DNA of 61,849 nucleotides, filler included, from Collodictyon triciliatum (GCA_043381765.1; 4 parts of 4 records of this genome joined end to end with filler, not necessarily neighbours in it); one strand, 5' to 3'; numbered from the whole stretch's first letter, positions 10,642 through 56,847 are shown. The notes: generated by a model from the letters alone, not told the origin. Made by a program: numbers and translations.

Positions 10642-10741
10642 NNNNNNNNNNNNNNNNNNNNNNNNNNNNNNNNNNNNNNNNNNNNTTAATTAATTAANNN
10701 NNNNNNNNNNNNNNNNNNNNNNNNNNNNNNNNNNNNNNNNN
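10642..10741. other. Artificial contig-join linker (N44-TTAATTAATTAA-N44)
   Basis: TTAATTAATTAA at 10686-10697 (stops in all six frames), symmetrically flanked by Ns; the identical structure occurs three times in the window. Confidence 0.95.
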
Positions 10742-10956
10742 TTTTATCTTTTTATCTTTTTATCTTTTTATCTTTTTATCTTTTTATCTTTTTATCTTTT
10801 TATCTTTTTATCTTTTTATCTTTTTATCTTTTTATCTTTTTCTATTTCTCTATTTATCTATTTATCTATTTCTTTGAATCGAATAAAGGAAAAAATCTAC
10901 TTATCTATTTATCTATTTATCTATTTATCTATTTATCTTTTTCTTCTCCGATTAGA

Positions 10957-13697
10957 ATGGAAGAGTCTGAGGACCCGGAGACACCCGAAATCCAGTTTGA
11001 GTTGAGGAAAGGAGCACACCGTGGACAAGGTCAGTTGGTGAAGCCCCCTAATGCTTGGAACCCATACTTTCGACCCATAAAATGTTGTCGTATAGCAAAT
11101 ATTTACATCGTTTATTGAGAGTAATCACCCAAGCTAAATCCTTCTCTATTTATTGCTACTTTTTTTTATTGTTATTGAAGAAACAAGTTGTTTATTTCCA
11201 CAATATTATGGTTGACTTCTTTTTTTTTTTCCCCCCCTTTATTCATTATGGTTGACTTTTTAATCGTAGTGTATAAGGGCACGTTTTTTATCACTTCTCT
11301 GATTAATTAATTAATTTATCAATTAATCGATCAATAGTATATGATAAAGCGCTTAGTTTAACAGTGGTAATTCATTATACTATAAAATGTATTATATCTT
11401 ACCGTAATTATTTGATAGAACATAACTACTAGTGTTAGCACCCAAAACTTTAATTCATCGAGTACGTTATTATTGGGAGAAGGGAGTGTATATGTCTTGT
11501 GATACATTCCATTTTTTTTTTCAGTGTATCCTATTTTCTCCATAGAGTAAGACACCAGAAAAAAGCAGCTACCTATATGACCTCGATCCAGCGAGTATAC
11601 CTCCATTACCGAGAATTAAAGTACTAGATTACTGTTACTATTATTTCTCTTTCAAGTAATAAGCATAAAAGTTCACTTTATTCAAACATGATAAAGTATT
11701 CATAATCTCACAAAAAAATTGTAAGGGACACGTACCAGGTCAAGGAAGCCTCGAAATGCGATCGCCAACTCCAGAGCAAAGTGATTACAACATATCAATC
11801 TTTCGATTTCAATGGATATTTCCAGTATTAGATTATTAAATAAGAGTATTTGTATAAATATACAGATCATTCATTATTTTCAAGCTTCGCTGCCTCACCA
11901 AAAAAGATATATAATTTAAATTTGCAAGTGGAAGATGAATTGGTATTATTTTGTGTTGCGTCCTTTATAAACCCCTACCCCAATAAAAAAAAAATCCAAA
12001 AGGCTTATTCAGAAAATGAGCTCACATCTTCTTTTCTTTTCCTCTTTTCCCTTTCCCTTTTCCCTTTCCCCTTTCCCCTTTTTTCCCTCTTTTTCGTTTC
12101 TGTTTTCTAGGATTGATTTTTATATTTCTTTGATGACGATTTCTAATCTAAATATACGTTTATTTAGAGCCAAAATACCGATGACTCAAAAGAGCAAAAA
12201 CCTAGTCTTAACAGTCCAAATAAAACTCTTGAAATAAGGTTTGATTTAAAATTCAACCTTACATCCCAGATGAACATCACTTTATTAACATGTATAATTT
12301 TATTTACTCTATGACAGAAAATCCTTTCTGAACACCGAAATACATTTACAAAATTTTGAGTACTCGGATAACTTTGTTTCAGAAGATATCTCCGAAAACA
12401 TCGAAAGAGTTCGTGACCCAGGGTAATATCCTTTTTATTTACCTGGCATACCAATTTAAATAGCCTGATTATTATTTTTCATTGTTTTTTTAATTAAAAA
12501 AAAGGTATGCTCGCTAATTGATTGTATCCACTTGTTGTTAAGTGAACACATAGGAGTTAGAGATACCGCTAATCAGTTCAAAGAAAACGTTGCCACCTCC
12601 TCCAATGAAAGTATGAGTCCTAAATGAAAAAATAAAAGACTGAACCAGTTTTTAAAATTGTTCCTTAGAATGATTTAATAGCCATAGATTTCATCGATTT
12701 GCAAACCAATAAGACAGCATCTGATTCTGATGAGAAGCATACATGTATATCAATCAAAGTTCCAATACATGCACAACTACGATCAATTATAAATAACTTT
12801 CCAAATTATAAAGGAGTAGATTCCTTTTTCGCATATTCATCTAATTTTATTGAATTTATATTCACGCTATCAGTTTACAATTTATTAATCAGCATTTTTA
12901 TATACCACACTTTCCCTTATCGTTTTCTATGCGTTCTGTCCTTGACCAGCCCATGAAAAAGAGGTTAATATATTTTTCATGTGCTTTCGATGAATTTATT
13001 GCAAATTTTTACTTTAGAAACAGGCTTTTTTTTATCCTATTCGCTTTTACTTATACATACCCCACATTTTTACAAAAAAAAAAAAAAAAAAAAAAACAAT
13101 AGTTAAAAAAAAAAAAAAAATTTTTATTTAAAAAAAGGGAAAAAAAAATAAAAAAAAAAAAAAAAAAAAAAAAAAANNNNNNNNNNNNNNNNNNNNNNNN
13201 NNNNNNNNNNNNNNNNNNNNNNNNNNNNNNNNNNNNNNNNNNNNNNNNNNNNNNNNNNNNNNNNNNNNNNNNNNNNAAAAGTTTTTTTTTTTCCCTATTA
13301 CAAAAAAAAAAATAAATCCCAAAATTTTAAAAAAAAAAAAAAAAAAAAAAATAGTGAAATAATATAATTGTAGGTGCATTTTTCTGGAAAACCTGAATTG
13401 ACAAGAATAATGCAAGTCAGTTCCAAGGCGCGTAATTGGCAAAGAAAAGCAGGGAAACAAAGAGGCGAGGAATCTGAATCTACTAAAAAAGTAATAGATT
13501 GTCAACGAAGAGAAATATACCTGCTAATAGTACATTTGTGTAATGCCATTCTTGAGAATATATGTGCTTATTAATAGCTAAATTTTATGAGCAGTATGAG
13601 AGATCTCTAAAACAAATGATTGAACTACAAATTACTCGGTCGAAAACAGAGGTTTGACAGCATCATAATTGACTTTTTCTTTTCTTTTCTTTATTTG

Positions 13698-13739
<42 letters not shown>

Positions 13740-14330
13740 TTTTTTTTATTTTTTTTTTTTTTTTTATATTTTTTTTTTTTGTTTTTTTTTTTTTNNNNNN
13801 NNNNNNNNNNNNNNNNNNNNNNNNNNNNNNNNNNNNNNNNNNNNNNNNNNNNNNNNNNNNNNNNNNNNNNNNNNNNNNNNNNNNNNNNNNNNNNGGGTAA
13901 ACATTTTTTTCCTTTTTTTTTTTAAATAAAATTTTTTAAAAAAAAAAAAAAAAAAAAAATTGATTTTTTTTTTTTTTTTTTTTTTTTTGTTTTTTTTTTT
14001 TTTTTTTTTTTTGAAAACGTTTCACATTTTTTATCGAACCTATGGTAATTTATAAATATGCTCTGCAGGTGCCTTTTGCTCTTCAGATGGATATTTACGA
14101 AGAGACTTACCCCATCATGCTCAAATCAGTCGAGGTAATATGAATACATATTTTGTAATGCTACAATCATGAGTTGAATTATGTTCCTTTTCGCCAATAT
14201 TTTGTGCTCCTATTCTCTTTTCGTGCAGATGTATATAGCAGAACTCGGTCCAAGGCACCAGGTTTCGGTGGCCGCCATCAGCCGGCTTCGCGATATGGCA
14301 AAGATTCTTCGAAGGCCTTGTGAATACTGA
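10957..14330 (+). CDS. Hypothetical multi-exon protein (5' part uncertain, probably truncated by the contig edge)
   Basis: Series of GT-AG-bounded open segments; final exons read VPFALQMDIYEETYPIMLKSVE|MYIAELGPRHQVSVAAISRLRDMAKILRRPCEY* (weakly TPR-like). Internal exon phases are not fully resolved. Confidence 0.45.
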
Positions 14331-14609
14331 AATGTTTGTTTCCGCATGCCACCTCTCGCTTCAAACACCTGTATTGATATCGTTGTTGGTTTCATATATG
14401 GGCAGCTTTCTAGACCCTTGATTATCGTTTTTGGTGGGCTGTTTTTCTCGGAAAGTATGTCCCCAGTCTATGTTTTGTTCTAAATCGACGGTTGTGGCCC
14501 GTGAAGTTTACTTTTACTTCCTTTCGGCTCACTCTTAATAAACACATAGTTATATTGACTGTGGTGTCAGTTTGGCAGCTTTATTTTGTTTATTTGGTTG
14601 GTTATCTAA

Positions 14610-14728
14610 ATGTATCTATGTATGTATCTATGTATGTATCTATGTATGTATCTATGTATGTATCTATGTATGTATCTATGTATGTATCTATGTATGTATC
14701 TATGTATGTATCTATGTATGTATGTATG
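14610..14728. repeat. (TATGTATC)n microsatellite
   Basis: Direct sequence; between convergent gene ends. Confidence 0.95.
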
Positions 14729-14945
14729 GTTATTCCAGCAAAGATGAAGGTTATCACGATAGCACATGGCACAAGATTTTATGAATATTTATAGCAATAT
14801 GTCTCAGAATTAATTTCATCAAACAATATACTCCTGAGAATATCATTTCGGTTTCTTTTTTCTTTTTCTTTCTCTTTTTCCAAGGGTGCAAGGCTCGATG
14901 TCCTATATTAGAGCTATTTATTATTGTTTAATAGCCTTTACTGTA

Positions 14946-17900
14946 TCAAAAATCGAGAAATTGGAGGCCCTCGCACGATAATCGTTCTCCTGTTCCACCG
15001 ATGGCACAATAGCCTTGTAGCCCCGCCACATATGGTCGCCTACAACCCATTTTTTATTTCACTTCACTTTATTTTATTATGAATGGCGCGGTTGACAACA
15101 ATTTTAAATCACACAAAGATGAAATAGACAGTGTGACAATCATGCGATACTTCAGAATTAAAATAAGTTATAAAAGTCGTGATTGTATTTGAGAGGCTAG
15201 GAGAAGGGGGGAAAGGAGAAGGTGCGCAGAGAATGTAATATCTCCTAACCCTATCATCGCTGCGTAGCTCATCGGCAGTATATGCCCTTCAGTATTGAAG
15301 GTGTAGCTTTCCTCTATTTAGTTTTGTCATTAGAAGGCTATCAAAGATAATGCGGCATAGAATATGAGATGTGGTATTAGATAAAGTTTGTTGTGAACAA
15401 GTATGTGTAGTTGGTGTTTTATGGTATGTTATCGAGATAAAAGGAATCTAGAGAAGAGTCGGAAGATTGAAAGGTGAGATAGAACGAGACGTAAAAAAAA
15501 AAAAATCTTTGAATCGAATAAGGTGAAAAAAAGGGGGACGGAAAAAAAAACACAGACCATGTTGATTGACAAAGTTCTCGGGGTCAAAAAGGAGGTAAAG
15601 ATATTTTGTTGTTTCAGCCAGGAAGAAGCTTTCCATATGATCTCGTAGCGCGTGCGTCTCGACGTTGCTTATGGTAGCATATCCGCAATCCTTTTAGGTT
15701 ATTGTCATAAAAAAAATTATGTGGTGGTGGTGAGGAGAAAAGGATAAATATAAAGACAATTTTGTATGGGCCCATTATACACTGTTTTTTGCGACGGGGT
15801 TTATTTTGGATATCTGTTATCATATTGGTGTTTTCTATAAGGGCTTCTTTATTGCGCTTTTTGTTTATTTTTAATGAGTTTTTCTTTTTTATTGTTCTCT
15901 TGTCTGTTTTCTTTAACTATGTATTTTGAAACCCTGGAAAACTCCTATGCTTTATAATGAAACAATAATCCTTCTAGCCGGTCCCGTTCAATCAATTTAG
16001 CACTAATTAGACGGGGGAAATTCATCATAGCTGTGAAACTTACTGTTCGCGCAACTTTGGATATAGAAGAAATCATATCTCGTCCTAGGTACAGCCAGTA
16101 TGGGTCCAGAGTCGACCGGTACATGAAGTAGATACTCTCTGCCAACTCCTGAAGCATGTATGACGATGTGGTATTTGTGGTTTGAGTGATATTTTATCAA
16201 TAAATTAGGCTCGATATTGAAGTAAACAGGGTGTAATATCTCTCCCTTTTCTCTTTTCTAGGAAAAATACTGACATATACATGGAAGTGATAATTAAGGT
16301 TATAAAGGACAAGTATGAATAATTTTTTTTTAAAAAAAAAAGTATATCCCAAATATGAGAAGAGTCGGTAATTACAAACATCTATAAAGGCTTCATATAA
16401 AACATAGAATATTACAGGGCGCAGTGGATATGATTCTTGGTTTGGCTGGATATTTGCGTTAACAAGATTAAAGCCCTCGGGTACGAATCCATATCTCCTC
16501 CAAACGTTAAAGAAGGATTTCAATGTCCTTGATGCTTCCCTAACATGCCCTGTGTGAAGTTGAGGACCAATTGAATGACTTTTGTTTTGTATTGTTTTTA
16601 TTTATTTATTATTCTTTTCAATTTGTGCAAGATGGTGGGAATGTTGAGATTGAGTGATTTTGTTGTTCCAATTTTTGGGAAAGTATATGAATTTTAATTT
16701 AGGGAGAAGGGAGGCGTTAGTCATTTGGATAGATAACCTGTATGTACTTGAACGCCAGGCCAGAACCCCTGAAGTGAATTGTACAAGGGCCACATCACCA
16801 TACCACGATGCTGGCCGAGCAAACCCATATTAATGACAAAGAGTGGGAGGAAATAGGAATGTCGTATTAGATCGGAATATTTTTGCTGTTTAGTTCAGAC
16901 CAACTAACTCCATATTTAAATAAAAGCCAACACTCTCACCATCTGGCACAAAATTGAAGAGAAGAATAAAAAAAAAAACTCCATATTTAAATGGAGAATA
17001 TGTGTAAACGGAGAAGAAATACGACCATGTGTATAATATGCTATTTTAGTAACTCCCTTTCCAACTAATCAAAAAATCCACCATTTCAATAATACTCACC
17101 ATGTGTACATCAACGTACCAATCCTCCTTCTTTGCATGACGTATGATTGCCTCGTACGCCTTTTTTTTTCGGTAATTATGAATGTATATATCGAGATTAA
17201 ATTTCAAATAGGGAATCGTTCGCAAATTAGCTGGAAACGTTATCTTTCTTGTTGTTATGAAATATAAGCTTTTTTCCCTCTTTACTCGATTCGAAGTTTA
17301 TGAAATATGAGCTTAATATCGTGACCTCAGAGTTACCTTATGGAGAATCCTCAGGTAATCGTCATCTGAAAAATACATCGCCGCTGCAGAAGAATGGCCA
17401 TATTTGTATTGCATCCAAAAAGAAGAGATTGGGTTAAATTGAAACGAATAATTAAAAAAAAAACACTCAGATAAAGTTGGTTCATACATGTATGAATTTT
17501 TTTTCTCTCAGTTTGCTGATTTCTTTCCTTTCCTTTCCTTTCATTTCCTTTCCTTTTCTTTTCTTTTCTTTTCTTTTCTTTTCTTTTCTTTTCTTTTCTT
17601 TTCTTTTCTTTTCTTTTCTTTTCTTTTCTTTTCTTTTCTTTTCTTTTCTTTCATTTTCTTTCATTTTCTTTTCTTTTCTTTTCTTTTCTTTTCTTTTCTT
17701 TTCTTTCATTTCCTTTCATTTCCTTTCATTTCCTTTCATTTCCTTTCATTTCCTTTCATTTTTTTCTTTGCTTATTTAAAGTCGATAACAGTATTTGTAG
17801 AATAATAACCTTTCATTAAATATTCGTAAAATGAGTCAATCCCAGAACTTATTCCAGCATCAAGATGAGTCCATTCTCCACTTATGATGTTGATGTGGTT

Positions 17901-19991
17901 TCCAACCTTAAAAAAAATATGAGTGAATAAAATAAAAATCTTCAAACATTACTGCATAATATGTCTGCTGCTCTTTTTGTGTGAGTTGGTAGAACATGTT
18001 TTGAATTATTATGAAGGGGATAATACTAGATCTAGAGCCGACCGCCTTTCCCATATCCCGTAAACAGCTTTTTTTGCAGCATTCTGTGACCCACAAGTGA
18101 TTCTCATGGGTAAGGACACCAGCAAGGATAAAGAATTTTCGGAGAACATTACAATGAGATGAAACTAAACGGTGGGAAGAATACCTCGTATTTGTCATCC
18201 CCAGTGAGCCAACTGAGAATACCAAACTCAAGAGAGAAAGTTGTGGCGCTGGCTGTAGATGTTATGTTTGATTCATCCTCCATCACGCCATGTCTTAGGT
18301 TAATCTAGAAGTCATTTATGTAATCATCGGTTCGTGGGAGAAAGAGTAGGGGAAATAAATGGATTTATATATTAAACAGGACAGGACAAGACAGTAGGAC
18401 AGCAAAGATAGGAGGGGAAAGGAAAAAGGGAATAGGAAAAGGGGGAAATGAAGGAAATAAATGAAGGTGATTAAAAAAAATTGGCCTCAACACATACGAC
18501 TTACTGAACCATAGGGAATTCCAGTGGGTGTGTTAAATGCTATACATAAAAGGGATGGAGAACAATCAGTAAACTGGCATATATGGACTTCAATGGGAAT
18601 GATTCCTCTTTACATTTATTAAGTATAATAGCACATTGGGTTCATCAGTAGTTTTAGAAGGGAGAAGATTAAAAAAAAAAAAAAAAGAAACCCCTGATCA
18701 ATCTGTTTCCCAGGTCTATGGATAGATCCAATAACTTCGACTTTCGATTAAAATCAATGCTTAAGTGCTTGGAGTGAAAAGGGTCTTTACTGAGCAAATG
18801 TGCTGATAGGAGCCCACCCAGGGCTCGTATATTCAATTCTAAATATTTTAAGTGACATTATTAAATATATATGGCTTTGTACACTATTATTAAGTATTGC
18901 CCGTCTTGAATAAAGGAAAAAAAATTAAGTATTGCCCGTCTTACATCGTGCAAATTGAGAGTGGAATAATTAAATGAATATATAGATAAATAAAATTATT
19001 TAATTGGTCTATAATTATCCTCAAAAAGAAAAGCAAAGTAGCCAGATAGAGGGCTGGATGGGGAGACCAAATAAGATTGAATTACCAAATACTGAAACAT
19101 TATCGTCTATGTTAAAATCGAGGTTATTTGATATCCACGTCACAGCCTTTTCAAACTCTGTGTAATTGCCAAATATCTATATCACAGGTGATTTTAAAGA
19201 AGAGAGAGAAAACATGAGTCATGAATCTGCAAGAACAAATATCATGAATTACATTAGGTAATAAGTAACCCAAAGATTAACGAGATGTAGACCTTACCAC
19301 GAGAGCATCCAGCGAGTCGATTAGTGTCATAGCCGTGCTGATGCAGGGTATTGATAAAGTCTGATCAGTTTGTTTGATTTTTGGTTGTTGTTATTTGAAC
19401 CACAAAAAAGTTATGAAAACAGGAACAGGACTGCATGAAAATAAACCATGTAAGTAAAAAAAAAAAACCGACTTCCCAAAAGATTTCTTTCCCTGACAAG
19501 ACAACGGAAGAAGATCATCCATGGGAAAGGCATATGTCATGTAGCCGTCGTATGCGTGATAAAACATAGATACCACTTCCTTCCTACGATCAAATAAAAA
19601 TAAACACCTTCACAATCCAAAGCATAGATAAATGCGGGGGATGTCACACATATCTGATGTTCGAACGAGACGAAAATAAGAATGAGACCACACTCACGCA
19701 AAGGACAATTAGATAGAGTCACCTGTATTTTAGCACTTGCTCAGCAGGCAATGCGGAAGCCGCATGGCTGGAACACAAAGCAACGAGGGACAACGCAACG
19801 AGGGCCAAAGAAAGCCACCCCACTGGACACAGGCGGCCTCCTGCGGCGTATTCTCATGAATTAATCCCCGCGATATATCTTCGGCTATGGCGCCGGCAAC
19901 GCCAGAACAGAGTCAAGAAAACCGCAGAGAAGGCCAAGCGACCTCTGCCCCAAGCTCGATCATGACGCCTGTCGGCCCGTTCTCGCAGCAT
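14946..19991 (-). CDS. EDEM: EDEM-like alpha-1,2-mannosidase (glycoside hydrolase family 47), EDEM2-like, ~17 exons
   Basis: Spliced motifs [117 protein letters not shown]-terminal hydrophobic signal/anchor. Confidence 0.93.
17255..17314 (-). mobile_element. Diverged micro-retroposon copy with 17-bp TSD (1 mismatch)
   Basis: Reverse-strand ACTTCGAATCGAGTAAAGAGGG(A)n lies between TTATGAAATATAAGCTT and TTATGAAATATGAGCTT. Confidence 0.7.
18889..18942 (+). mobile_element. 5'-truncated copy of the micro-retroposon with 19-bp TSD
   Basis: GAATAAAGGAAAAAAA (18908-18923) lies between exact repeats ATTAAGTATTGCCCGTCTT (18889-18907, 18924-18942), in an EDEM intron. Confidence 0.75.
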
Positions 19992-20445
19992 GAAAGAGAG
20001 GGGAAGGAGGGAGAGACAGAAAAGGGGGTTTCCCGAGAACTTGCCCGAACCTGTGCGCTTGCTTTTCATCAATCCCTGGCGTGTGGAGATACTGGGTGTT
20101 TGTCGGGTTACGATCCTATTGCCCGGTCAGCCTTGTTCAGTGCTCTATGTTGTTCGCAGTTGTCTTCAAGAGGGCCACGTCCGGGGAGAGAAACCAGGAT
20201 ATTCTCATGGCCCAGTGATTGGTCGCTGTCATTTTCTAAGTATCCCCCACGCTACTTTCTCTCGTTGCTGACTCACAAGTTCAAGTGTTGGTCGTTATTT
20301 CAGTTTATTCGATCGGTGTGACACGCGCCGGTCGGAAGCAGTTAAGACCTCTTGCGGTTCTTCTGCCCTGGGAGAAGAGTTTGCGTTAGGGCACAGTCAT
20401 ACTGCTTGCTTCGAAAGAGGGGTTTATCGTGAGGTTGTCGTTGGT

Positions 20446-20515
20446 TTGTATCAGGGACTAAGTCAAAGTTAGCGTCATTGAAACACTAAGATGAAACACG
20501 AGTCATCATCTAGAG
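20446..20515 (-). ncRNA. Second intronic box C/D snoRNA, target unassigned
   Basis: Box C ATGATGA (20509-20503), box D CTGA (20454-20451), internal ATGA as candidate D', and a closing 8-bp stem TCGTTGGT/ACCAACGA (20438-20445 vs 20516-20523); lies in intron 2 of the host gene. Confidence 0.7.
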
Positions 20516-20728
20516 ACCAACGAGCCACTAGAAGAGAAGTCAAGGCGCGAAGTTAGCCTTGCATACCGTGTTTGGGGGAAGCTTGGGGCTGTTGCCGTAG
20601 ACAGGAGGTGGTGGCGGCATAGGTCCCTTGCGTATTACTGCAGGGAGAGTGAGTTTAGGTACTGGGACATGCACAGTTCAGGATGGGTCATTAAGGATGG
20701 TTCTTATAGAGCAGTTGTTCAAGATAAC

Positions 20729-20801
20729 AGGTTCAGCACTTGGTAATGGTATATTCACGGTTCAGTCATAAACACGGACCAATTAAGTGTCATCATATTG
20801 G
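20729..20801 (-). ncRNA. SNORD18: Box C/D snoRNA U18 (SNORD18) homolog
   Basis: Box C ATGATGA (20796-20790). The 13-nt guide TTGGTCCGTGTTT (20782-20770) is complementary to the conserved LSU rRNA sequence AAACACGGACCAA and is directly followed by D' ATGA. Box D CTGA at 20736-20733. The D'+5 rule points to the A in GAAACAmCGG, the known U18 target. Confidence 0.9.
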
Positions 20802-21081
20802 GTCATTGGCGGGGTGGCACAGCTGGAGAGTATGAGACGGAGGCGTTGTTATAAGCGAGTGTTGAGACTTTACCTCATGGGGTCTTCAGTGCGTCGGGCG
20901 CTAATCGAATTGAAGTGCCGGGTGGCATGAGGCAGTCTCAGCTGGCAGCCGTCCCGGGTTCCATAGCGATGCAGGTTAGGCAGGTATTGCTGTCGTGGGT
21001 GCAGACTTGTCGCTCGGTCTTGGGTGCTCGTTGTCCAGTGGTGTCCAGGCGGTTTGTGGATGAATAAGTTGTTTTGAAGAG

Positions 21082-21153
21082 AAAGCAAAGTACATTGTCT
21101 GCCCTCTATATATACTGTGCTGTTGGTACTTTGCTTTGTGGCTTCCCGCCAAA
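21082..21153. promoter_or_regulatory. Near-palindromic core promoter (TATATATA flanked by a 12-bp inverted repeat) with an adjacent E2F-type site
   Basis: AAAGCAAAGTAC (21082-21093) / GTACTTTGCTTT (21126-21137) surround TATATATA (21107-21114); TTCCCGCCAAA at 21143-21153. Lies between the divergent snoRNA host and SNARE genes. Confidence 0.5.
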
Positions 21154-21707
21154 ACTCACCAGTCTATTAGATTTTCGGCCGTAGACCACAAATTATTTCT
21201 GGAAAATATATATAATAATTTAAATTCTATTTTATTACTATTTGGTGTCATAAATATATCATATAAGTGACAATATTATATATATATTAAATTATTAGCT
21301 TTAGTTGCCAGTCGATGGCGTGCTAAGGCCGTTCCTGGAAATGTTCCTTGCCGTGCTTCTGAAGTTGATCCTGTTAATGGGGCGTGCAAGGGTGAGATTG
21401 AAATTGTCGGGGTTCCCTTATTTGATCACCGGCAAGTCAGGATGCTGCCTCGTTGATCGAGTCATTGCCTGCGGGCTTTTGCCGTTCTTCGTGGCACGAA
21501 GCCGATCGACCCAGCAAGAGATTTCCACAACTGCTTGTTGAACTAGAGATTCATTTGCATGATCATGCTTTCGGTTGAGCGTGTCCTGTCTATGATATGC
21601 TGTGCTTCTGCTGCTTCTGCTGCTTCTGCTTTTTTGTTGCAATTGTGTAAATATGTTCTCTCTCTCTGCAAGTAGAAAGGGACCAAAGAGAAGGAGGCGG
21701 TTGTGGA

Positions 21708-24169
21708 ATGAAGCCCAGTACTCCAGCCAAAAAGTCAAATAGCAACTTTGAATCTCGTTTTACCCGTGCGAACGATCCGGATGATTTCCATGATGACGAG
21801 GAGGTATGTTATGTGGACGGCTGTGTCTTTCTTTCTTTTTGTTTTTTTTCATTTGTGCCCGATCAAAAAGTGAAGAGATACTGTCATAAAAGTATAATTC
21901 TCAACAGTAATCGTAACAACAGTTTTCATCGCATTTCTTTCCGAATGTTTTGCTGTGCTCTCATCTTTTGACGATTTATTTCAAGACTCTTGTTTATCAA
22001 TTATTTATTCATTTATTTATTTGCTAACTAAAAACACGATGTAATTTCATGAGTACCCTAATGCTTATTCCAGTTAAAAGATTTATTTTTGTTTTCCAAT
22101 ATACAGCTCATCAATTAGAGCCAGCGATACTTTGAATCGAATAAAGGAAAAAAAATTAGAGCCAGCGATGATGTTTGCCAAAGTTCTCACTGCCACTTTA
22201 TAATTTTAAACCCAAGGAAGTTCTTGATGCAGCCTATGAGCTTCATAAAGATATTACTGCAGGCACGGATAGAATTGTACGAAAGCTGGAGGAGACAAAG
22301 CAGATTGGTAATTTTTTTTTATTGGTCTACGGTTAAGGTCATTCCGTATCTTATTAATTGATAAGGGAGAGGAAAATGAGACTTTTTTTTTTTGGAAAAG
22401 TGCACTATTTTATTCATGTAAATTCAATCAAAATTAGCAATAAACACCAACCAGAATTTAAAAGGCCAGTCAGGTATATCTTTATGTATATCTTGATCAT
22501 TTTCATATCTTTTTAAGAGTATTGACCAGTCGATTATTTGAGGCGTTGCAAAAAAACGTGATGTGTACAATAATCATTTTTGTGTGTTTTCTTTTCCATT
22601 TTTCTAATGCAAACCTATTCCATGTTGCTATTTTCCGTAATGAGATCTTTGAATCGAATAAAGGAGGGATCTTTCTACAATAAAATCATCGAATTTGTTA
22701 ACTAAATTAATATTTTTCCCCTTTATTCGATTCAAAGTGTATTAACTTGATTTATAATTAATATATATTTTAAACCCTCGTTGGTATAATTGCAGAACAG
22801 TTGGACCATATCGAACATGATGTAATGCCATTAATCGAGTATTTTCGAGTCACGAAAGGATGTATTATTGTGAATTGATAATATGAATAAAAGAATACAA
22901 TTTACTAAGATTCTTGATTGTCATATGGTACCAAAAACAAAACAAAAAAGATGGAAAGAGTGAACGACAACGTTGACAGCTCCAAGCCTTTAATTCAAGG
23001 AATACTCTCACTACCGAGTGCCATCAAAAACGGGTTTCTAGGTAACTAAGTCATGAGATGTTAAGAACATACACGAATATAGTAATTGAAGACAAACGAC
23101 TAAAAAAAAATACATCATTTATGTCTCCCATTCACTTTGAATCGGATAAAGGAAAAAAAAACATTTATATGTCCCATGAAAACATCCAGTCTGTTCTGCC
23201 ATTCATCGTATTATATACATTATGATCTTTTCAGTGACGTATAATTGACATGCATATGCAGGATTATTTTCAGCAGAACCCAAGTCAGCTTCTTCAAAGC
23301 TTCCGAAAGAATCGTCTACACCATCTTCTGGGCGAATTCAGTCAGGCCATCCATCATCTCAATTGGAACTCTCGAAAGATAGGACTTCAAGAGCAGGCTC
23401 TGCATCTTCCCCTAGTCAAGAGTGAGTTTTTTTTTTTATTATTGTTATTGTTATTGTTATTGTTATTGTTATTGTTATTGTTATTGTTATTGTTATTGTT
23501 ATTATTATTATTATTAATTATAAATTGGGACCAAAGGATATCAATGCCTTCATTCATTTATGGGGTTTTTAGGCACAATTGATTATAACAATATTTTTCC
23601 TTTCGTGCTGAATGCGTTTAATTTAACACCTCCTTGATTTCGAGTTTTGAGTTTTCTTCGTTTTCTTAGTTTTCTGCGTCCATCACTTAGTTTCCCAAGA
23701 CTTTAGCTGATTCACGCATACATACATTTATTTGCACATTACAGCACAAGATACACTTCCGTTCTCGGTCAAAAAGGAGGTCGTTTTGACCAAGAGACAA
23801 ACAAGCAGAGGGCAAACCTTGAAATTATGGGGACTCTGCTATCAGAAATCAAAGTAGTTATTGATAAAGAAGTCAATTATAAAAACTTCACATCCCAAGA
23901 CTTTATTTCTCTCTCCATACAATTCAGTAATATGATTTGCATAAGATTTTACAGCCTACGAAATTGAGCTGCATTTCTGTGATGATATCTACACATATGT
24001 AGCTTATGCACTTATTTATACCAACTACAATAATCAGGGCGCATCTGAAGAAATGGGACGGGAACTTGACAGCCAATCAGAAAAAATCGAACGCATCACA
24101 AATCGTACCGACGATGTGCACTCAAAGCTGGCCGACGCCAATCGAATGCTCAGAAAAGCCAACAACTGA
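21708..24169 (+). CDS. SNAP-25/SNAP-29-type Qbc t-SNARE
   Basis: Eight GT-AG exons give two SNARE helices with central Q layers (..RKLEETKQIAINTNQNLKGQSEQLDHIEHDMERVNDNV..; ..LLSEIKGASEEMGRELDSQSEKIERITNRTDDVHSKLADANRML..); no transmembrane segment. Confidence 0.85.
22113..22169 (+). mobile_element. Micro-retroposon ACTTTGAATCGAATAAAGG(A)n with 16-bp TSD (reference copy)
   Basis: Insert 22129-22153 lies between exact direct repeats AATTAGAGCCAGCGAT (22113-22128, 22154-22169). Confidence 0.8.
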
Positions 24170-24635
24170 AGTGGCAAAGATGTTGCAAACATACGAATTA
24201 GTAAATATTAAATCACGAAACACTTGCGTTTGCTCTCTACGGTGCGCACTCATCTCGCCCCTTTGTATGGCATAAGCTCACTGCACTTCGAATTGAATAA
24301 AGGAAAAGAAAAATACCTTTCTAGTACCCAATAAAATAAGAACATGAAGTATTCTGGTTTTGGGCGTCGAGGTTACACACATTACCTACCATCCTATCGA
24401 GCGCTCGGAAATATCATATATCTTTTTGTATTTGTTTGTACATGTTTACTTGATTATTTGTTTTTTTGTTGTTGTTTGCTATTTGCTATCCCTTTTTCTT
24501 GCCGAGCTCTGCAAGCGCCCCGGCCTCTGGACAGAGTCGCTAGTCCCTTTCAGCCAAAGCCCAACAAAAACACAAGGAATACAGAAACAGGACTTGAAAC
24601 TGCACTGATCAGCCCAGTCGGAGACAAACAGATGG

Positions 24636-24668
<33 letters not shown>

Positions 24669-25219
24669 CAAAACAAAACAAAACAAAACAAAACAAAACA
24701 AAACAAAACAAAACAAAACAAAAANNNNNNNNNNNNNNNNNNNNNNNNNNNNNNNNNNNNNNNNNNNNNNNNNNNNNNNNNNNNNNNNNNNNNNNNNNNN
24801 NNNNNNNNNNNNNNNNNNNNNNNNAAAAAGAAAAAGAAAAAGAAAAAGAAAAAGAAAAAGAAAAAGAAAAAGAAAAAGAAAAAGAAAAAGAAAAAGAAAA
24901 AGAAAAAGAAAAAGAAATAGAAATAGAAATAGATCAACAAAGAGAAAAAAGAAAAGAAAAATAAAACAAATAAACAAATAAATGCGCAAAGCTATAAGCA
25001 GAGAAGAGAGAAAATAATTTTTTTTTTCCCCTTCGATTCAAAGAGAGAAAAAGGATATAAACATTTGATACAGTTAAAGAGTAAAAAAGAGACAACTGTA
25101 AAAAGAAAAAAACGAACAAAGTCAAAGCCAAGCTTGAATTGAGTTCACCCTAACGATGAATAACCCCATGACTTAGTGGCATTACACAATAGCTACAAAG
25201 CCAACCCTCTGCTCTTTCT

Positions 25220-28200
25220 ATGCTACATATTCCCTACACACCCTCCACCCACTTCGAGCAGCGCTCCAGCCTCCCAAGCAGACAAATCCCAGAGGCAGCC
25301 TCACCACAGAAGCAAGTTCCAAAGATGACTACTTATCAGTCGCCGTCATCAGACTACACAATTGGAGGAGCAAGCAAGCCAACTCCCCAAGATTATCCAG
25401 AGAGAGTAACAACCTTTTCAAACAGGCACGCTAATACCCAAGACAGCACACTTACCTTTCTCGCAGGAGCACAATCTCGCAGTCCTCCCTTCTCAAGCAC
25501 ACAGTCAGCGATCAATACGACACCTGATTACAGTTCTACGTACGATATCCGATCAGCCAAAGCTGAAACGCAATCATCTGGTTCCCAATTCTCGAGTGGC
25601 TCCATATTGGAAAGATCATCTCAATATGATCGCAATCACGCGAATTATTCAGGAAAGCCTGAGGCACAAGCATCTGTTTCACAAATATCAAGCCATCAAC
25701 CACCCTCAAATCGGCAACCAATTACACCAGTGAGCGATGTTTTCTCTACAAAGCCAAGAACACAATCACCAAATATCCAACTACCAAGCGCAATAGTAGC
25801 AGAAAGGCCACCCCAACACACTCCTGCTAGGGACGGGAAGGGCACAACCAAACCCACAAATCAGCCGGTGCAGCAAGGATACGAAAATCTGAAGAAGGAA
25901 GGCTGGGCAGCGATTAAAAAACTGTATGCTCTCGGATCGAAACCTCTCAAAGCAGATTTACTTCCAAGTGAGGCTAACTCGCTAAAATATACATTCCCGG
26001 AGGAACTGGAAAAAGAATACAGCAAATATGAATATTTTTTGGATTCAAACGAAAGCAATCTCAAACGTACCCTCAACAGTAATATCGAGTATGCGTCAAA
26101 GATAAGTGAATTCAATCTAGAATGTGCCTTGAAATTAAAAACAAAAGTTGATGGGCACATTTCAGAGAGCGAATTAAATGGATTTTCATCCATCTCTCGG
26201 CTAGCAAAAAACGAAAAAGATACCATCCTGACTATGTCTTTGCTTCTGAAGTATAAATGGAAGTATCGATTTGTGTCAGGAAATTTGTTAAATTTTATCA
26301 TTGCAAAAAAGGTCTACGAGGAATTAGTTACCTCGAAGCAATGTTCCTTCCTCGAAACAAATCATCTGGATACGCACATATTGTCAAATTTACAATACCT
26401 TTCTTTTAAAAACATCAGATTCCCATCTATTTTGAAAGAGCTGATTCAGAGGGAGTCAAAACCAGGGTCATTTTTCGGCGGCAATATAGCGTCGATTCTA
26501 TGCTTTATCCATGAACCTTTGAACGGATTTGACTTTTCTGGACAAAATCTCAGTCATGCTTATCTAAGAGGTGCGAATATCCATGGCGCAAACTTGAGCA
26601 ACTCGAACCTCACTTGTGCGACCCTACGTGACGCGTTTCTCGATGAAGCCAATATGGACGATGCCAACTTGGAAAACCTAAACATTGGATTTGTTGCTCA
26701 AAAAAAGTGGAAGGGAAAAATTCAATCGATACTGCACCTAGATGGTGACTTATTGGTGGTTGCTACAGCGAATGAGAATCTAATTTGGAATCACATAACT
26801 GATGCAGAGGAAAAAATTTATACTGGGAGCGAGGTTAAAGTGATTGGGCTAGGGAAATCTAGAGACGGGAAACCCGCGGTTTTGTACGTCGAAAATAGTA
26901 ATACGATTTCTATATGGGGCGTGGAACAACACACAAAGTTGCTCACCTCAGATTCAGTCCAAGGGATTATCACATGCATCGCTTTTTACGAGGACAAAAT
27001 GGGAAATCGAATCATATTCTTTGTCGTCAATGATGTGACGATAGGGTGGTGGGACATGTGCTCATCAGAACTCATGCTTGGGACCAAGCAAGATATCCAC
27101 GCGTATGGAAAAATACTGCCTTTGAAAGGAAAATCAGACCCGACACTTATTGTCTGTTCAAAAGATGGAACAATGTTAGAGTACAACCACTCGACCAGAG
27201 AGACGAAGATAATCCACCAGTATGCTAACAAAGACTTTTTGACTATAGCGCCTGTTCGTTCGCATAAAAATACTTTCATCATCACACACAAGTCTGCGGT
27301 AGAAATTGTAGAGAACGAGGATGAATGGAAAGTACTGAATAGAATCACAGCTACAGATTACAGTTTCCACCACGCAACTGCGGTTATTCACGAAAACTAT
27401 GGGAAATATATATTAACATCAGACACAGAACGAGTTGGAACCTTGTGGGATTATAATGGGAAAAAATTGGAGAGTTACTACGGTTTCAAAAAGACTACCA
27501 CAGGAGTGTGCGCTATTGTGAGAAAGCAGGATGATAGTTTTACAGTTTTCATTGGTGATGATGACGGACTCATTCGGGGCTGGAAAACAAGCCCCCATAC
27601 CAATACAAAAGGGTTGACATCGTTTTCTGGGACAGTCAACTACGTTTCTGTAGAAGAATTGCATCAAAATAAAACATCGACGGTATTTTCAGGAAGTAAG
27701 GACGGTTCAGTCCAGGTCCGAGATTTACGCAACGGAAACTTGTACGCCTGCTTCAAGGATACAAACGGGCCAGTCCAATGTGTACGTGCAGGGATATGTG
27801 GCGATGAACCCGTTATTGCAGCTGGGGATTCAAAAGGATATATTCATTTTTGGAGCCAGAAAACCTTCAAACCAATTCGAAGTGTTAAAGCGAATGATGA
27901 TAAGATTGTTTCTGCTTTATACATAAAAGTGGACGGACACGATTTCCTGGCCACCTTGAACGCAAAAGGTTTTATTTGTGTATGGGACAACAAGAGTGAT
28001 AGACCTTGGCTAACAGAAAAAGCCCAGTGCGGGAAAGCCATTGATTTGTTGGATGCTTCACGAGATGGCAAGTGTATCCTATATGCACTCGGAGGGGACA
28101 TTTGTCGCCTTGACATCACCCCAGACGGCATCGAAGTTGGAGAAATGATAGAGTTATCTGTCACACCAGTTTCTGGGTGCCTGTTCACTGAGGATGAGGA

Positions 28201-30559: not shown

Positions 30560-30634
<75 letters not shown>

Positions 30635-32455
30635 TCATAGGGGATTCTCAAGATGTACAGGGGATCATTGATTTGAATTTTGACTCTCCTCTGATCGACT
30701 CGTCCCTTGATGAAGTCTACCCCAATCTATTTATGCTCGGTTTGCTTTTATTCAAGCATTTACTTTGGTTGTTAACGAATCTATCATTATTTTCTTTAAA
30801 TATAATCGAACCTCATTTTTTGGGTGCAATGTATTTGATATAATGAATAATATTTCTTATTGAAGCCCTAAAGCGGTCTTTTAATACATAAGATGTACAC
30901 TATCTAACATTTATACGATTACATTAGCTGATGAAGCATATAATTCCAAGTATATCGAAAGATCTGAAAAGGACTTTTTTTCTATGGAGGACGACATTGT
31001 GATGGCTGATTCGTATGATACCATATTGCGAGGCTACCTGACTTCTACCAAGCAGATCGACCCATCTGTCTACATGTCCCACAAATTCCTCATTGAGATG
31101 TTGTCACTCACACCCGCTGCATCGGGGGCTGACTTGTATGGGAAAATGAGACTATTCGACGCAAATCTGTGTGATTATGTTTCAGGTCTTCTATTTTTAC
31201 TTGCAAGGATCCTAACTCGTGTATTCTTCTGATTCATAATAAAAAAAAAAAAGAAAATAAATACCACTGTTTTGATGATTTCTCCATGAATCAAGGAAAG
31301 GGAGGAAAATTCTCAACCATGTCATTCGTATTAAATACTTTCCTCGTCATAGAGGAGTACTACTTTGATTTTGCAACCATAACCTTCGGGCAACAATCCT
31401 CTGTCTACACATGTGCTAAGTCTGCTATATTCGAGACCAGGTTTGAAATCTATATTCATAATCATTATTGAGAACTATGATTGAAACATAGTTTGAATTC
31501 ATCACTATTAAACATGGATATTGTTCTATTAGCCATAAAAATAGCCATATTTACCTTGCCATAACAATAGAACAGGTGAGTGAAACTATACTATTTTAAG
31601 TATTGTGGGTTTAATCTGTTCATATGTAATTTGCGTCTCATATTTCTTTCCAATGGCATCATTTACTTTTTCTCAACACTTGCAGACTTTACCAAGCATG
31701 GACATAACAATTGATGGACACAAGAAAGGATCTGATTGTACGCCAGTATCTCTCCACAGGAAGATTCGAGAACCAATAGCCATGGCCATTTTCCAGATAT
31801 TCGATGATTCAGGAGTTGTTTGTATTAACCAAGGTATGATTTTATCCATTTGATATGTATCAAATCTACTAAGTTTGGGGCTTGACTATCGAAATTTGGC
31901 CCTATATACACAAAAATATGAATACAGAAAATTTTTTAATAGACAAAGCATAAGTGGGTTCAATAATGTAAACACTCCTTTTTTAAAATAAATAAATAAA
32001 TAAAATAATGTGCTGATATCATTTTTCCCATCAGAGAAAAAAATAACGACATTTTGTGACCTTCGCACATCTCCGGGGATTTCTTTCGCTACTTTACTGA
32101 AAGATGGAATCCCATGGGGCTCAAAGAATCGTAAATTAGCTCTCAACATTCGCGGTAACAAGAACATCATCTAAACTCATGACTTTCTTAAAATGTGTCT
32201 CGTTTAAATATATTTAAATCTATTATCGCGTTTGTTTTCTAATGATTTTATTGATTTTATTTTTGTTTATGTTATTGAATTATGTTATCTTTTTCTTTTT
32301 CGTCCTTTTTTCGATTTAAATTACTTTATTCCAAAGTCACCGAGCTTGAGGATAAGACCCCAGCCGGCAAGATTCGATTAGACCCTTCCTATAACTCGGT
32401 GTCTTTGGCAAATATGGTCACATGTAGGCTATCTGGTCATCGAAAGAGGAAACAA

Positions 32456-34912: not shown

Positions 34913-35012
34913 NNNNNNNNNNNNNNNNNNNNNNNNNNNNNNNNNNNNNNNNNNNNTTAATTAATTAANNNNNNNNNNNNNNNNNNNNNNNNNNNNNNNN
35001 NNNNNNNNNNNN
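34913..35012. other. Artificial contig-join linker
   Basis: TTAATTAATTAA at 34957-34968 flanked by N runs. Confidence 0.95.
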
Positions 35013-35142: not shown

Positions 35143-36173
35143 TTACAAATGAAGGTTGAGTTTTAAATCAAATTCACACAAGCGAATACGAGTTGTGATT
35201 GTTTCTTTTAAAAAAAAGAGAAAAATTGAGGGCACTTGATCAATGGCAGCGTCAAACGAGGTGATCGCCTCTTTAACTTTTATCGCTTCGCACCTGTCTT
35301 GCTTCTCCATCTGTGTTCCTAGCAAAAACATGAGTATCCTAGTCTATTAAAATAATAATGTATCTAAAAGATAAGGAGCGTAAAATAAAAAAAAATTATA
35401 ATTTATTCTTCCTTTCAATTTGTACGAGATAAGGGTGCATTTCATAAAATTATGAATAATGAAATACTGGAAAGTGCAAATGAGCTGCAAATGTATTGTC
35501 CTCTCATTTTAGTATTGTTTTGCTGCTTATGTTTTCAGGATAATCTAATATATATAAAAAGAAGTATAGATTCTGTAATTAAAAATCTTTCGTCTTGCTG
35601 CAGCCCCTCCTCTCGAAATCGGTCACTCATTCAAGGGGGAACTTCGGCAAACCGCCCCAAACTCAGGATGTATGTAAACAAATGAGAAAATAAGACAAAG
35701 AAGCAAAATGAAAAATAAAGAGTATAAAAAAGTACAAAAAAAGTAGAAAAAAGTAGAAAAGTAAAAAAAAAGCTTAAAGTAGAGTAAAAAAAATGTAAGG
35801 TGTAAGGTCAATTATCAGTTAAATTGGTGATCGAGTGGGCGACAGCGCAACCTAACATAACAAATCGAACTATGCCAGTTGCCAAGCATACCAGTCAACG
35901 CAACTGAGAAAAAAAAACCGATCTTATGCCGCGATTTTCGGTAGCAGATTAAAAAAAACTGCTTTTTCGATATCTTGGATTCATTCTCTGACATTAGCAA
36001 GAAAGCAAAAAAAAAAACTAAAGAATCAGAGACAAAGAAACAAAGAAACAAAAACAAAAAAGGAGTCAAAAACAAATCATAAAAACAAAAAAAAACAGAA
36101 AAGAGAAACAAAGAAACAGAAAAAAAAAACAGAAAAATTAGTTGAAAACAAAACGAAAAAAACAGGCAGCAAC

Positions 36174-56747: not shown

Positions 56748-56847
56748 NNNNNNNNNNNNNNNNNNNNNNNNNNNNNNNNNNNNNNNNNNNNTTAATTAAT
56801 TAANNNNNNNNNNNNNNNNNNNNNNNNNNNNNNNNNNNNNNNNNNNN
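56748..56847. other. Artificial contig-join linker
   Basis: TTAATTAATTAA at 56792-56803 flanked by N runs. Confidence 0.95.

What the first reader, a model, noticed from the sequence alone, without database searches (positions are those of the whole stretch)
10872..25043. Dispersed ~25-nt A-tailed micro-retroposon with long target-site duplications and a fixed 5' end
Seen: about 10 copies of ACTTTGAATCGAATAAAGG(A)5-9 on both strands, all intronic or intergenic. They are at 10872+, 15507+, 17272-17297(-), 18908+, 22129+, 22647+, 22713-22738(-), 23134+, 24285+ and 25018-25043(-), with a possible decayed copy near 32300(-). Three copies have 16-19 bp direct flanks (22113/22154, 18889/18924, 17255/17298); others have decayed flanks. 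Known: an A tail plus a variable 15-20 bp TSD is the hallmark of target-primed reverse transcription by a non-LTR retrotransposon. Inference: most copies begin at the same (A/T)CTT(T/C)GAA base rather than at random truncation points, so the template may be a discrete ~19-nt RNA instead of a LINE 3' end. Candidates are a spliced-leader-like exon (A-start, ends AAG, as several known SL exons do), a tRNA T-loop-derived fragment (TTCGAATC variants) or a minimal SINE. An element this short would be missed by standard repeat pipelines.
Basis: partly seen in the sequence, partly recalled or inferred. Interest (0 to 1): 0.8.

Follow-up and report, generated by a model that had tools for sequence, protein, structure and literature searches.

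The report
Ultra-short LINE retrotransposon tail copies
The repeated 19-base A-tailed motif is the very end of an ordinary LINE-type jumping gene whose copies were cut off unusually early, not a new kind of tiny mobile RNA.

Summary
The motif CTTTGAATCGAATAAAGG occurs 9 times at 3 mismatches or fewer, against 0.51 expected. I count 12 copies, one of them new at 11236-11244(-). Eight of the 12 have abutting 11-19 bp target-site duplications.

The proposed discrete 19-nt RNA (spliced leader, tRNA fragment or micro-SINE) is not supported. A metagenome contig, L001, carries the same 19-mer plus A10 at the end of a 93-nt 3'UTR. That UTR follows an ORF with the C-terminal zinc-binding domain of reverse transcriptases (zf-RVT). 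All four of that ORF's full-length relatives tested carry an APE endonuclease and a reverse transcriptase domain. The window copy at 24222-24313 retains 82 nt of that UTR, 86% identical over 92 nt.

The copies are therefore severely 5'-truncated products of target-primed reverse transcription (TPRT) from an L1-like LINE. LINE-derived lengths are 9, 9, 17-22 (nine copies) and 82 nt.

The pile-up at 17-22 nt exceeds an exponential truncation model (P about 6e-5) and remains unexplained. Folding gives no support for a blocking hairpin.

The window is four scaffolds joined by artificial linkers, and all 12 copies lie on one of them.

Verdict: a new member of a known kind, of modest interest.

The parts
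10872..10895 (+). LINE-tail copy: 18 nt (CTTTG...AAAGG) plus A6, inserted in an 8-bp tandem repeat array
   Evidence: The TSD-like flank (23 bp) is uninformative because the site lies inside the ATCTATTT repeat.
11205..11259 (-).
   Evidence: Blind poly-A plus TSD scans, (TSD matches at 14 of 15 positions).
15507..15531 (+). LINE-tail copy: 18 nt with 2 mismatches and an A7 tail followed by a G run; possible A-rich 14-bp TSD
   Evidence: It lies just 3' of the last GH47 domain-bearing exon on the opposite strand.
17255..17312 (-). TSD (15-17 bp, 1 mismatch) / 19-nt LINE tail with 3 mismatches + GGG + A6 / TSD
18890..18942 (+). Perfect 18-19 bp TSD / GAATAAAGG (9 nt) + A8 / TSD, in an intron of the GH47 gene
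   Evidence: exon positions.
22115..22169 (+). Perfect 14-16 bp TSD / exact 19-nt LINE tail ACTTTGAATCGAATAAAGG + A8 / TSD
22647..22665 (+). Exact 18-nt copy with almost no A tail and no clear TSD (alternative reading: a 7-bp GATCTTT repeat around a 14-nt copy)
22713..22738 (-). Exact 19-nt copy (up to 22 nt if the flank TAC is counted) + GG + A5. It converges on the copy at 22647, 55 bp away. Partial TSD (8 bp, then an indel).
23116..23177 (+). 16-bp TSD (2 mismatches) / TC + 19-nt copy (1 mismatch) + A9 / TSD
24222..24313 (+). Long copy: 82 nt of the LINE 3'UTR plus an A4GA5 tail; no TSD found
   Evidence: 79 of 92 positions identical to the 3' end of L001, E = 2.7e-25 and 9e-24; alignment.
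25019..25040 (-). Decayed copy TGAATCGAAGGGG + A9-10, with an 11-bp exact TSD; 15-18 nt LINE-derived, depending on a 3-nt overlap with the TSD
32290..32320 (-). Decayed 17-nt copy (2 mismatches) with an interrupted A-rich tail; no TSD
16908..16992 (+). Context, not part of the family: a 57-nt A-tailed insert of a second retroposon family with a perfect 14-bp TSD
   Evidence: A second, older copy lies about 300 bp to its left on the minus strand.

Best explanation
The 19-mer ACTTTGAATCGAATAAAGG is the last 19 nt of the 93-nt 3'UTR of a poly(A)-tailed, L1-like LINE (APE endonuclease, reverse transcriptase, C-terminal zf-RVT zinc knuckle). The window copies are dead, severely 5'-truncated insertions made by target-primed reverse transcription.

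Proposed sequence of events:
- The endonuclease nicks the bottom strand, often at a T|A step.
- The freed 3' end primes on the poly(A) tail.
- The reverse transcriptase copies only the last 9-22 nt (once 82 nt) of the LINE RNA.
- The top strand is cut 11-19 bp downstream.
- The short cDNA is joined to the upstream end without consistent microhomology, which leaves the TSD.

Shown here: the motif's identity with the LINE 3' end, the tails, the TSDs, the spread of lengths and the absence of any RT gene in the window. Inferred: the order of events, and that the short length comes from early termination on a long LINE RNA rather than from a pre-shortened template. The cause of the mode at 17-22 nt is not established.

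My odds are about 0.9 that these are LINE tails made by TPRT. Within that, I put about 0.55-0.6 on early termination or hand-over to host repair, and about 0.2-0.25 on a trimmed RNA stub as template.
For: (1) The exact 22-mer scan of metagenome contigs returned 2 loci. L001 carries ...GCTACACTTTGAATCGAATAAAGG+A10.

(2) Upstream in L001 is a GC-rich ORF matching zf-RVT (PF13966; 32.4 bits against a cut-off of 27.5, E = 1.5e-7; CX2CX8HX4C). P0123 (98% identical) bridges its one frameshift, and P0124 aligns to the same C-terminus. The ORF therefore ends 93 nt before the tail.

(3) A full HMMER scan found 14 relatives. All 4 full-length ones tested (P0131-P0134; 1226-1275 aa; E = 2.8e-8 to 6.2e-5) have Exo_endo_phos plus RVT_1, and the match lies at their C-terminal ~960-1150.

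(4) Window 24222-24313 is 79/92 identical to the L001 3' end, so one window copy extends 63 nt beyond the 19-mer into the UTR.

(5) Eight of 12 copies have abutting 11-19 bp TSDs. Seven of 12 exceed the null 95th percentile. The blind scan gave 5 hits against 0-1 at control offsets, and 4 of the 5 carry this tail.

(6) Starts vary (9, 9, 15-22, 82 nt), as truncation predicts.

(7) Of the 7 TSD sites read, 3 have a TT|A nick step and 1 has TC|AA. This resembles the L1 endonuclease preference, which I give from recall.

(8) A second A-tailed family with a perfect 14-bp TSD lies on the same scaffold, so TPRT activity there is not limited to this motif.
Against: Nine of 12 copies start within 17-22 nt of the tail. 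That is far more than an exponential truncation model fitted to the same data allows (P = 5.9e-5, or 1.5e-5 without the 82-nt copy). The review PMC3747384 (passage read) gives 100-1000 bp as the usual length of truncated LINE members. No stable RNA or cDNA structure explains a stop there.

The RT and endonuclease domains were seen only in distant relatives (25-38% identity), not in the close family; P0137 and L001 show only zf-RVT. L001 comes from an unnamed metagenome, and it is not shown to be the same species as the window. Only 12 copies from one 24-kb scaffold were available. The G runs of 2-7 between AAAGG and the A tail are unexplained.
Confidence: 0.7

Rival explanations
1. The template is a discrete RNA stub of LINE origin. 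The LINE mRNA is cut, or trimmed 5'-to-3' by host nucleases, down to the piece protected by the reverse transcriptase bound at the poly(A) junction. That ~18-19 nt stub plus tail (and a further-trimmed 9-nt form) is then copied in full by TPRT. The sharp 5' boundary would be a nuclease footprint, not a polymerase stop.
For: The narrow mode at 17-22 nt (9 of 12) and a second class at exactly 9 nt (2 of 12). The two cleanest copies, 22129 and 17297, show no microhomology and no extra bases at the 5' junction, as expected for run-off at an RNA 5' end. No RNA structure explains a polymerase stop.
Against: No RNA data could be examined. Starts still spread over 17-22 nt. The 82-nt copy and the second family's inserts of about 50-57 nt show that longer templates are copied as well. 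The idea is an inference with no direct test here.
Confidence: 0.2
2. One reading: an independent short RNA unrelated to LINE transcripts (spliced-leader exon, tRNA T-loop fragment or minimal SINE) is the source, and it merely shares or lends its sequence to the LINE tail.
For: The TTCGAATC variants resemble a T-loop and the motif ends in AAG(G). One copy (15507) reads AAG|GTGA, like a splice donor.
Against: The 19-mer is contiguous with a LINE 3'UTR in L001 and in the window copy at 24222. ARAGORN finds 0 tRNAs and Rfam gives 0 hits at gathering score, SL RNA families included. The copy at 15507 has a possible A-rich 14-bp TSD (1 mismatch), and I saw no Sm-like site in its 3' flank by eye. 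A 19-nt unit cannot hold the A and B boxes of a pol III promoter (established knowledge). Two copies begin at GAAT, 9 nt from the tail.
Confidence: 0.03
3. A DNA-level origin: the motif is the terminal inverted repeat of a miniature DNA transposon, or short templated filler copied from nearby DNA during break repair.
For: The copies at 22647(+) and 22738(-) form a perfect 18-bp inverted pair 55 bp apart. All copies sit on one 24-kb scaffold.
Against: The other 10 copies are solitary, A-tailed and oriented, and 8 of 12 have 11-19 bp TSDs of variable length. The inverted pair has no shared flanking duplication. Templated repair does not make poly(A) tails or long TSDs (established knowledge).
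Confidence: 0.02

Closest known systems
5'-truncated copies of L1-clade LINEs (APE endonuclease + RT + C-terminal CCHC/zf-RVT, poly(A) tail)
   Same: Poly(A) tail, an AATAAA just before it, variable 11-19 bp TSDs, dead 5'-truncated copies, a zf-RVT domain at the ORF2 C-terminus, and APE plus RT in full-length relatives.
   Different: The copies are an order of magnitude shorter than the 100-1000 bp quoted for truncated LINE members (PMC3747384, passage read). Eleven of 12 are 22 nt or less, with a sharp mode at 17-22 nt.
SINEs that borrow the 3' tail of a partner LINE ('stringent' recognition; e.g. the Chlamydomonas SINEX-3_CR/L1-1_CR pair named in PMC3747384, passage read)
   Same: A non-autonomous unit that shares the LINE's 3'-terminal sequence and poly(A) and is mobilised by the LINE machinery.
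   Different: There is no head or body, no pol III promoter and no tRNA/7SL/5S part. The shared tail there is about 80 nt, against 9-22 nt here. No stable, conserved 3' stem-loop is predicted.
Spliced-leader RNA exons and their retroposed relics
   Same: A short (16-40 nt) sequence of fixed 5' end that can be carried into the genome by reverse transcription.
   Different: Here the sequence sits at the 3' end, directly before the poly(A), and is continuous with a LINE 3'UTR. No SL RNA family was detected in the window.
Tailless retropseudogenes from truncated tRNAs (Schmitz et al., as summarised in PMC3747384, passage read; PMC5322556 seen in the search listing only)
   Same: Very short RNA pieces retroposed by L1-type machinery.
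   Different: Those lack poly(A) and derive from tRNA. These have A tails and derive from the LINE itself.

Membership tests
L1-like (APE-type, poly(A)) non-LTR retrotransposon | The repeat is continuous with an ORF2-type coding region and its 3'UTR | tested here: met
   In L001 the zf-RVT ORF is followed by a 93-nt UTR ending in the 19-mer plus A10. Window 24222-24313 shares 79/92 nt of that UTR.
L1-like (APE-type, poly(A)) non-LTR retrotransposon | Reverse transcriptase and APE endonuclease domains | tested here: inconclusive
   These were seen only in 4 of 4 distant full-length relatives (25-38% identity; RVT_1 E = 1e-33 to 1e-36, Exo_endo_phos E = 1e-11 to 1e-14). The close family is known only from fragments carrying zf-RVT. 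None of the 241 window ORFs of 75 aa or more hits an RT or endonuclease family, and tblastn with the L001 ORF finds nothing in the window.
L1-like (APE-type, poly(A)) non-LTR retrotransposon | C-terminal Cys-His zinc knuckle of ORF2 | tested here: met
   PF13966 zf-RVT, 32.4 bits against a cut-off of 27.5. It is also present in P0124, P0126, P0130 and P0137.
L1-like (APE-type, poly(A)) non-LTR retrotransposon | A tail, variable-length TSDs and 5' truncation | tested here: met
SINE | Internal pol III promoter in a tRNA-, 7SL- or 5S-derived head | tested here: not met
   The unit is 9-22 nt. ARAGORN finds 0 tRNAs and Rfam gives 0 hits in the window. The upstream flanks of the copies are unrelated to each other.
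Spliced-leader RNA | A source gene with the exon followed by a GU donor and an Sm site | tested here: not met
   No SL family at Rfam gathering score. The only copy followed by GT (15507) has a possible A-rich TSD, and I saw no Sm-like site in the flank printed, by eye only. This covers the window only; the genome is not held.
Spliced-leader RNA | The sequence is found at the 5' ends of many mRNAs | not testable with these tools
   No RNA holder was listed, and no reads could be laid.
MITE / DNA transposon | Paired terminal inverted repeats with a short fixed-length TSD | tested here: not met
   One inverted pair without a shared TSD. Ten of 12 copies are solitary and A-tailed.

The most novel reading that the evidence does not exclude
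The last 18-19 nt plus poly(A) of this LINE form a discrete minimal retroposition unit. The unit would be an RNA stub with a defined 5' end, either a nuclease footprint of the RT-poly(A) complex or the product of a specific cleavage, and it would be copied in full. It would be by far the shortest retroposed unit with a defined 5' end, invisible to repeat-masking pipelines. Each copy also sows an AATAAA plus A-run into introns.
Probability: 0.2. Interest if true: 0.6.

Novelty: new member of a known kind. Interest (0 to 1): 0.3.

Why it matters
The finding removes a tempting but wrong lead, a new 19-nt mobile RNA or spliced leader, and replaces it with a documented LINE family from a poorly sampled eukaryote. 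The host's RIX7 ATPase is at most 72% identical to anything listed, and word-based searches found no homologue for the LINE ORF.

It also shows that TPRT can leave footprints of only 9-22 nt. Standard repeat annotation would miss these, yet each one adds an AATAAA signal, an A-run that can seed a microsatellite, and a 11-19 bp duplication to introns and spacers.

The sharp length mode is a small open question about how LINE integration is cut short. It could be settled with the whole genome and RNA-end data.

Tried and rejected
- **Sequencing runs.** Three runs were listed, with shares of 0.11, 0.11 and 0.00. No RNA holder was listed.
- **Laying reads.** Expression, mRNA 5' ends and insertion polymorphism are therefore untested.
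- **Other sequence collections.** The genome-contig scan gave 10 loci and the viral-contig scan gave 1. Together with metagenome locus L002, all are matches lacking the LINE UTR upstream; I read them as chance matches. Ten of the 12 are from records titled as bacterial, and L002 and the viral contig are untitled. A protein-profile scan of viral contigs found no relative.
- **Word-based homologue searches.** These found nothing for the LINE ORF or for the ZZ/MIB_HERC2 protein.
- **Host placement.** Atlas and RIX7 hits are spread over many eukaryote groups at 72% identity or less, so the host is unplaced. Cluster look-ups gave no names.
- **Structural stop hypotheses.**
  - The L001 3'UTR fold has z = -0.96.
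  - The window copy's fold has z = +2.2.
  - The terminal CUUU/AAAG hairpin is worth -0.3 kcal/mol and is matched or beaten by 88 of 200 shuffles.
  - The cDNA snap-back hairpin is worth 0 kcal/mol.
  - A weak hairpin in the fold ends by my count at the 'AC' start, but it is not significant and is not kept in the window copy. None of these ideas is supported.
- **Regional hot spot.** The first test gave p = 1e-4, but it treated the window as contiguous. The window is in fact four scaffolds joined by N44-TTAATTAATTAA-N44 linkers. Within the one scaffold that holds all 12 copies, clustering is not significant (p = 0.06). What remains is the contrast between scaffolds (P = 1e-4).
- **The 57-nt insert at 16922.** It did not align convincingly to the LINE UTR, so I treat it as a separate family.
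- **Literature.** Four full-text searches found no report of LINE copies of 20 nt or so with a preferred start. This covers the held library only, and paper supplements are closed.
Full report
**1. The observation**

The 17-mer TTTGAATCGAATAAAGG has 9 matches at 3 mismatches or fewer in the 61,849-bp window. Dinucleotide-preserving shuffles give a mean of 0.51, and 0 of 100 shuffles reach 9. These include the two that fall outside that threshold: 18908, which keeps only GAATAAAGG, and 25020-25040(-), which is decayed.

A blind scan that ignored the motif looked for a run of 6 or more A's directly followed by a non-simple direct repeat of 12 nt or more whose other copy lies within 400 nt upstream. 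It gave 5 hits, against 0, 1, 0 and 0 when the repeat was required 7, 13, 20 or 30 nt further on. Four of the 5 hits carry the motif. That brings the total to 12 copies.

**2. Target-site duplications**

Local alignment of the 35 nt on either side of each copy was compared with 3000 random sites (95th percentile score 9). Seven of 12 copies score above that (binomial P = 5e-7). One of the seven (10872) sits inside an 8-bp tandem array and is uninformative. The copy at 11251 was mis-framed, but searches show its TSD, matching at 14 of 15 positions.

TSD lengths are 11-19 bp: 22129, 14-16 bp, perfect; 18908, 18-19 bp, perfect; 17297, 15-17 bp; 23134, 16 bp; 11251, 15 bp; 15507, 14 bp and A-rich; 25040, 11 bp. 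The copies at 22647, 24222 and 32320 show none.

**3. What the motif is**

No whole genome is held for this window. An exact scan of metagenome contigs for the motif plus four A's returned two loci.

- L002 lacks the LINE context and looks like a chance match inside a coding region.
- L001 (1157 bp) reads, on its minus strand, as a GC-rich coding region followed by ...GCTACACTTTGAATCGAATAAAGG+A10 and then AT-rich flank.

The coding region of L001 matches Pfam zf-RVT, the zinc-binding domain found C-terminal to non-LTR reverse transcriptases (32.4 bits against a cut-off of 27.5; motif CX2CX8HX4C).

A full HMMER scan of 1.84 billion representative proteins found 14 relatives:
- Short fragments are 59-98% identical. 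P0123 bridges the single frameshift in L001, and P0124 aligns to the same C-terminus.
- Four full-length proteins of 1226-1275 aa match with their C-terminal ~960-1150. All four have Exo_endo_phos plus RVT_1.

The L001 ORF ends 93 nt before the A tail, so the 19-mer is the very end of the 3'UTR of an L1-like LINE.

Inside the window, 24222-24313 is 79/92 identical to the L001 3' end (E = 2.7e-25, 9e-24; alignment). The copy at 24285 is therefore not a 19-nt unit. It is an 82-nt truncated LINE 3'UTR.

The window holds no tRNA and no Rfam family, SL RNAs included. None of its 241 ORFs of 75 aa or more matches an RT or endonuclease family, and tblastn with the L001 ORF finds nothing.

As controls, the same motif plus A4 occurs 10 times in 596 Gb of prokaryote genomes, and the 18-mer occurs once in viral contigs. 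None of these has the LINE UTR upstream.

**4. Anatomy of the copies**

LINE-derived lengths are 9, 9, 17, 18, 18, 18, 15-18, 19, 19, 19-20, 19-22 and 82 nt.

The two cleanest copies (22129 and 17297) begin at A of ACTTTG directly after the TSD, with no microhomology and no filler. The copy at 23134 has two extra bases. The copy at 25040 overlaps its TSD by CTT.

Tails are A5-A11. In six copies, extra G's sit between AAAGG and the A run or interrupt it. I have no explanation for these G runs.

Of the 7 sites where the TSD boundary can be read, 3 have a TT|A nick step and 1 has TC|AA. This resembles the L1 endonuclease preference, which I give from recall. The sample is too small for a consensus.

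Seven copies are on the plus strand and five on the minus strand.

A GH47 mannosidase gene with many short exons lies on the minus strand at about 15.45-19.6 kb. The copy at 18908 is in one of its introns, 17297 is probably in another, and 15507 lies just past the last domain-bearing exon.

**5. What remains odd**

Nine of 12 copies start 17-22 nt before the tail. An exponential truncation model fitted to the same data puts 20% of copies there, which gives P = 5.9e-5 (1.5e-5 without the 82-nt copy). A review gives 100-1000 bp as the usual size of truncated LINE members (PMC3747384, passages read).

I tested structural causes:
- The L001 3'UTR does not fold better than shuffles (z = -0.96).
- The terminal CUUU...AAAG hairpin is worth -0.3 kcal/mol.
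- The cDNA snap-back hairpin is worth 0 kcal/mol.

A weak hairpin in the fold ends by my count at the 'AC' start, but it is not significant and is not preserved in the window's long copy. The mode is therefore real in this small sample and unexplained.

Two readings remain. In the first, cDNA synthesis on a long LINE RNA is cut short, by the enzyme or by host repair, at a favoured early point. In the second, the template is already a stub: the part of the LINE RNA protected at the poly(A) junction after cleavage or exonuclease trimming. I favour the first, at roughly 0.55-0.6 against 0.2-0.25. Longer copies of this family (82 nt) and of a second family on the same scaffold (57 nt with a perfect 14-bp TSD, and an older copy about 300 bp away) show that longer templates are used. 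Nothing here tests the two readings directly.

**6. Apparent clustering**

Eleven of 12 copies lie within 14.1 kb, and a first permutation test gave p = 1e-4. However, the window is not one piece of chromosome. Three N44-TTAATTAATTAA-N44 linkers, at 10642-10741, 34913-35012 and 56748-56847, join four separately assembled scaffolds.

All 12 copies are on scaffold 2 (10742-34912). Within that scaffold, clustering is not significant (p = 0.06). The contrast between scaffolds remains: P = 1e-4 for AT-rich sites. Tetranucleotide profiles of the four scaffolds correlate at 0.83-0.95, which is consistent with one organism. The density of these copies therefore seems to vary between genomic regions, but adjacency within the window means nothing.

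**7. Host**

The genes are eukaryotic and have introns: WD40, Sel1, ZZ/MIB_HERC2, PP2C, GH47, CobW and a RIX7/NVL-type AAA ATPase. The ATPase is at most 72% identical to listed proteins, which come from fungi, ichthyosporeans, heteroloboseans, jakobids and others. I cannot place the host, and I cannot show that L001 is from the same species.

**8. What could not be done**

No RNA holder was listed among sequencing runs, and no reads could be laid. mRNA 5' ends, small RNAs and empty-site polymorphism are therefore untested. Four literature searches found no description of LINE tails of about 20 nt with a preferred start. Supplements are closed, and subscription journals are largely absent from the library.

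**9. Verdict**

The TPRT reading is right. The discrete 19-nt RNA, spliced-leader, tRNA and micro-SINE readings are not supported.

These are ultra-short 5'-truncated tails of an L1-like LINE from an unplaced eukaryote: a new member of a known kind. The narrow length mode is a modest curiosity that is worth checking once the genome is available.

Noticed in passing
window 10642-10741, 34913-35012, 56748-56847: Three artificial linkers (44 N, TTAATTAATTAA, 44 N) show that the window is a concatenation of four separately assembled scaffolds. Neighbourhood across them is meaningless, and any clustering argument must be made per scaffold.
   Followed up: yes
window 16908-16992 (+), and an older minus-strand copy about 300 bp to its left: A second A-tailed retroposon family: a 57-nt insert ending ...TTGAAGAGAAGAATAAA+A11 between perfect 14-bp TSDs (CTCCATATTTAAAT), plus a diverged second copy nearby. 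It is not clearly alignable to the LINE UTR.
   Followed up: partly
window 22647-22738: Two exact copies of the tail face each other 55 bp apart, forming a perfect 18-bp inverted repeat. I read them as two independent convergent insertions rather than a MITE.
   Followed up: partly
window copies at 11220-11244, 15525-15540, 17270-17278, 22713-22719, 25019-25031: Runs of 2-7 G between the LINE end (AAAGG) and the A tail, or after it, vary from copy to copy. They could reflect tail heterogeneity in the RNA, slippage or non-templated addition. I did not resolve which.
   Followed up: no
window 15451-19609 (-): A GH47 alpha-mannosidase gene split into at least 8 short exons with introns of roughly 150-350 bp. 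Its introns hold two LINE-tail copies and, between two of its mapped exons, the 57-nt insert.
   Followed up: partly
window 25193-28720 (+) and 35856-38054 (+): A 1175-aa uninterrupted ORF combines pentapeptide repeats with WD40 propellers. A 732-aa ZZ/MIB_HERC2 ORF found no homologue in the word-based search.
   Followed up: no
window 32304-32340 (-): Just 5' of the decayed copy, the flank reads CTTTGGAATAAAG. This looks like a second, internally deleted remnant of the same tail.
   Followed up: no
window 13074-13176, 13701-13794, 30561-30632, 17520-17773, 24825-24966: Very long homopolymer A/T runs (49-103 nt) and pentamer/hexamer arrays (TTTCT, AAAAAG) crowd scaffold 2. Some may be expanded retroposon tails.
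   Followed up: no
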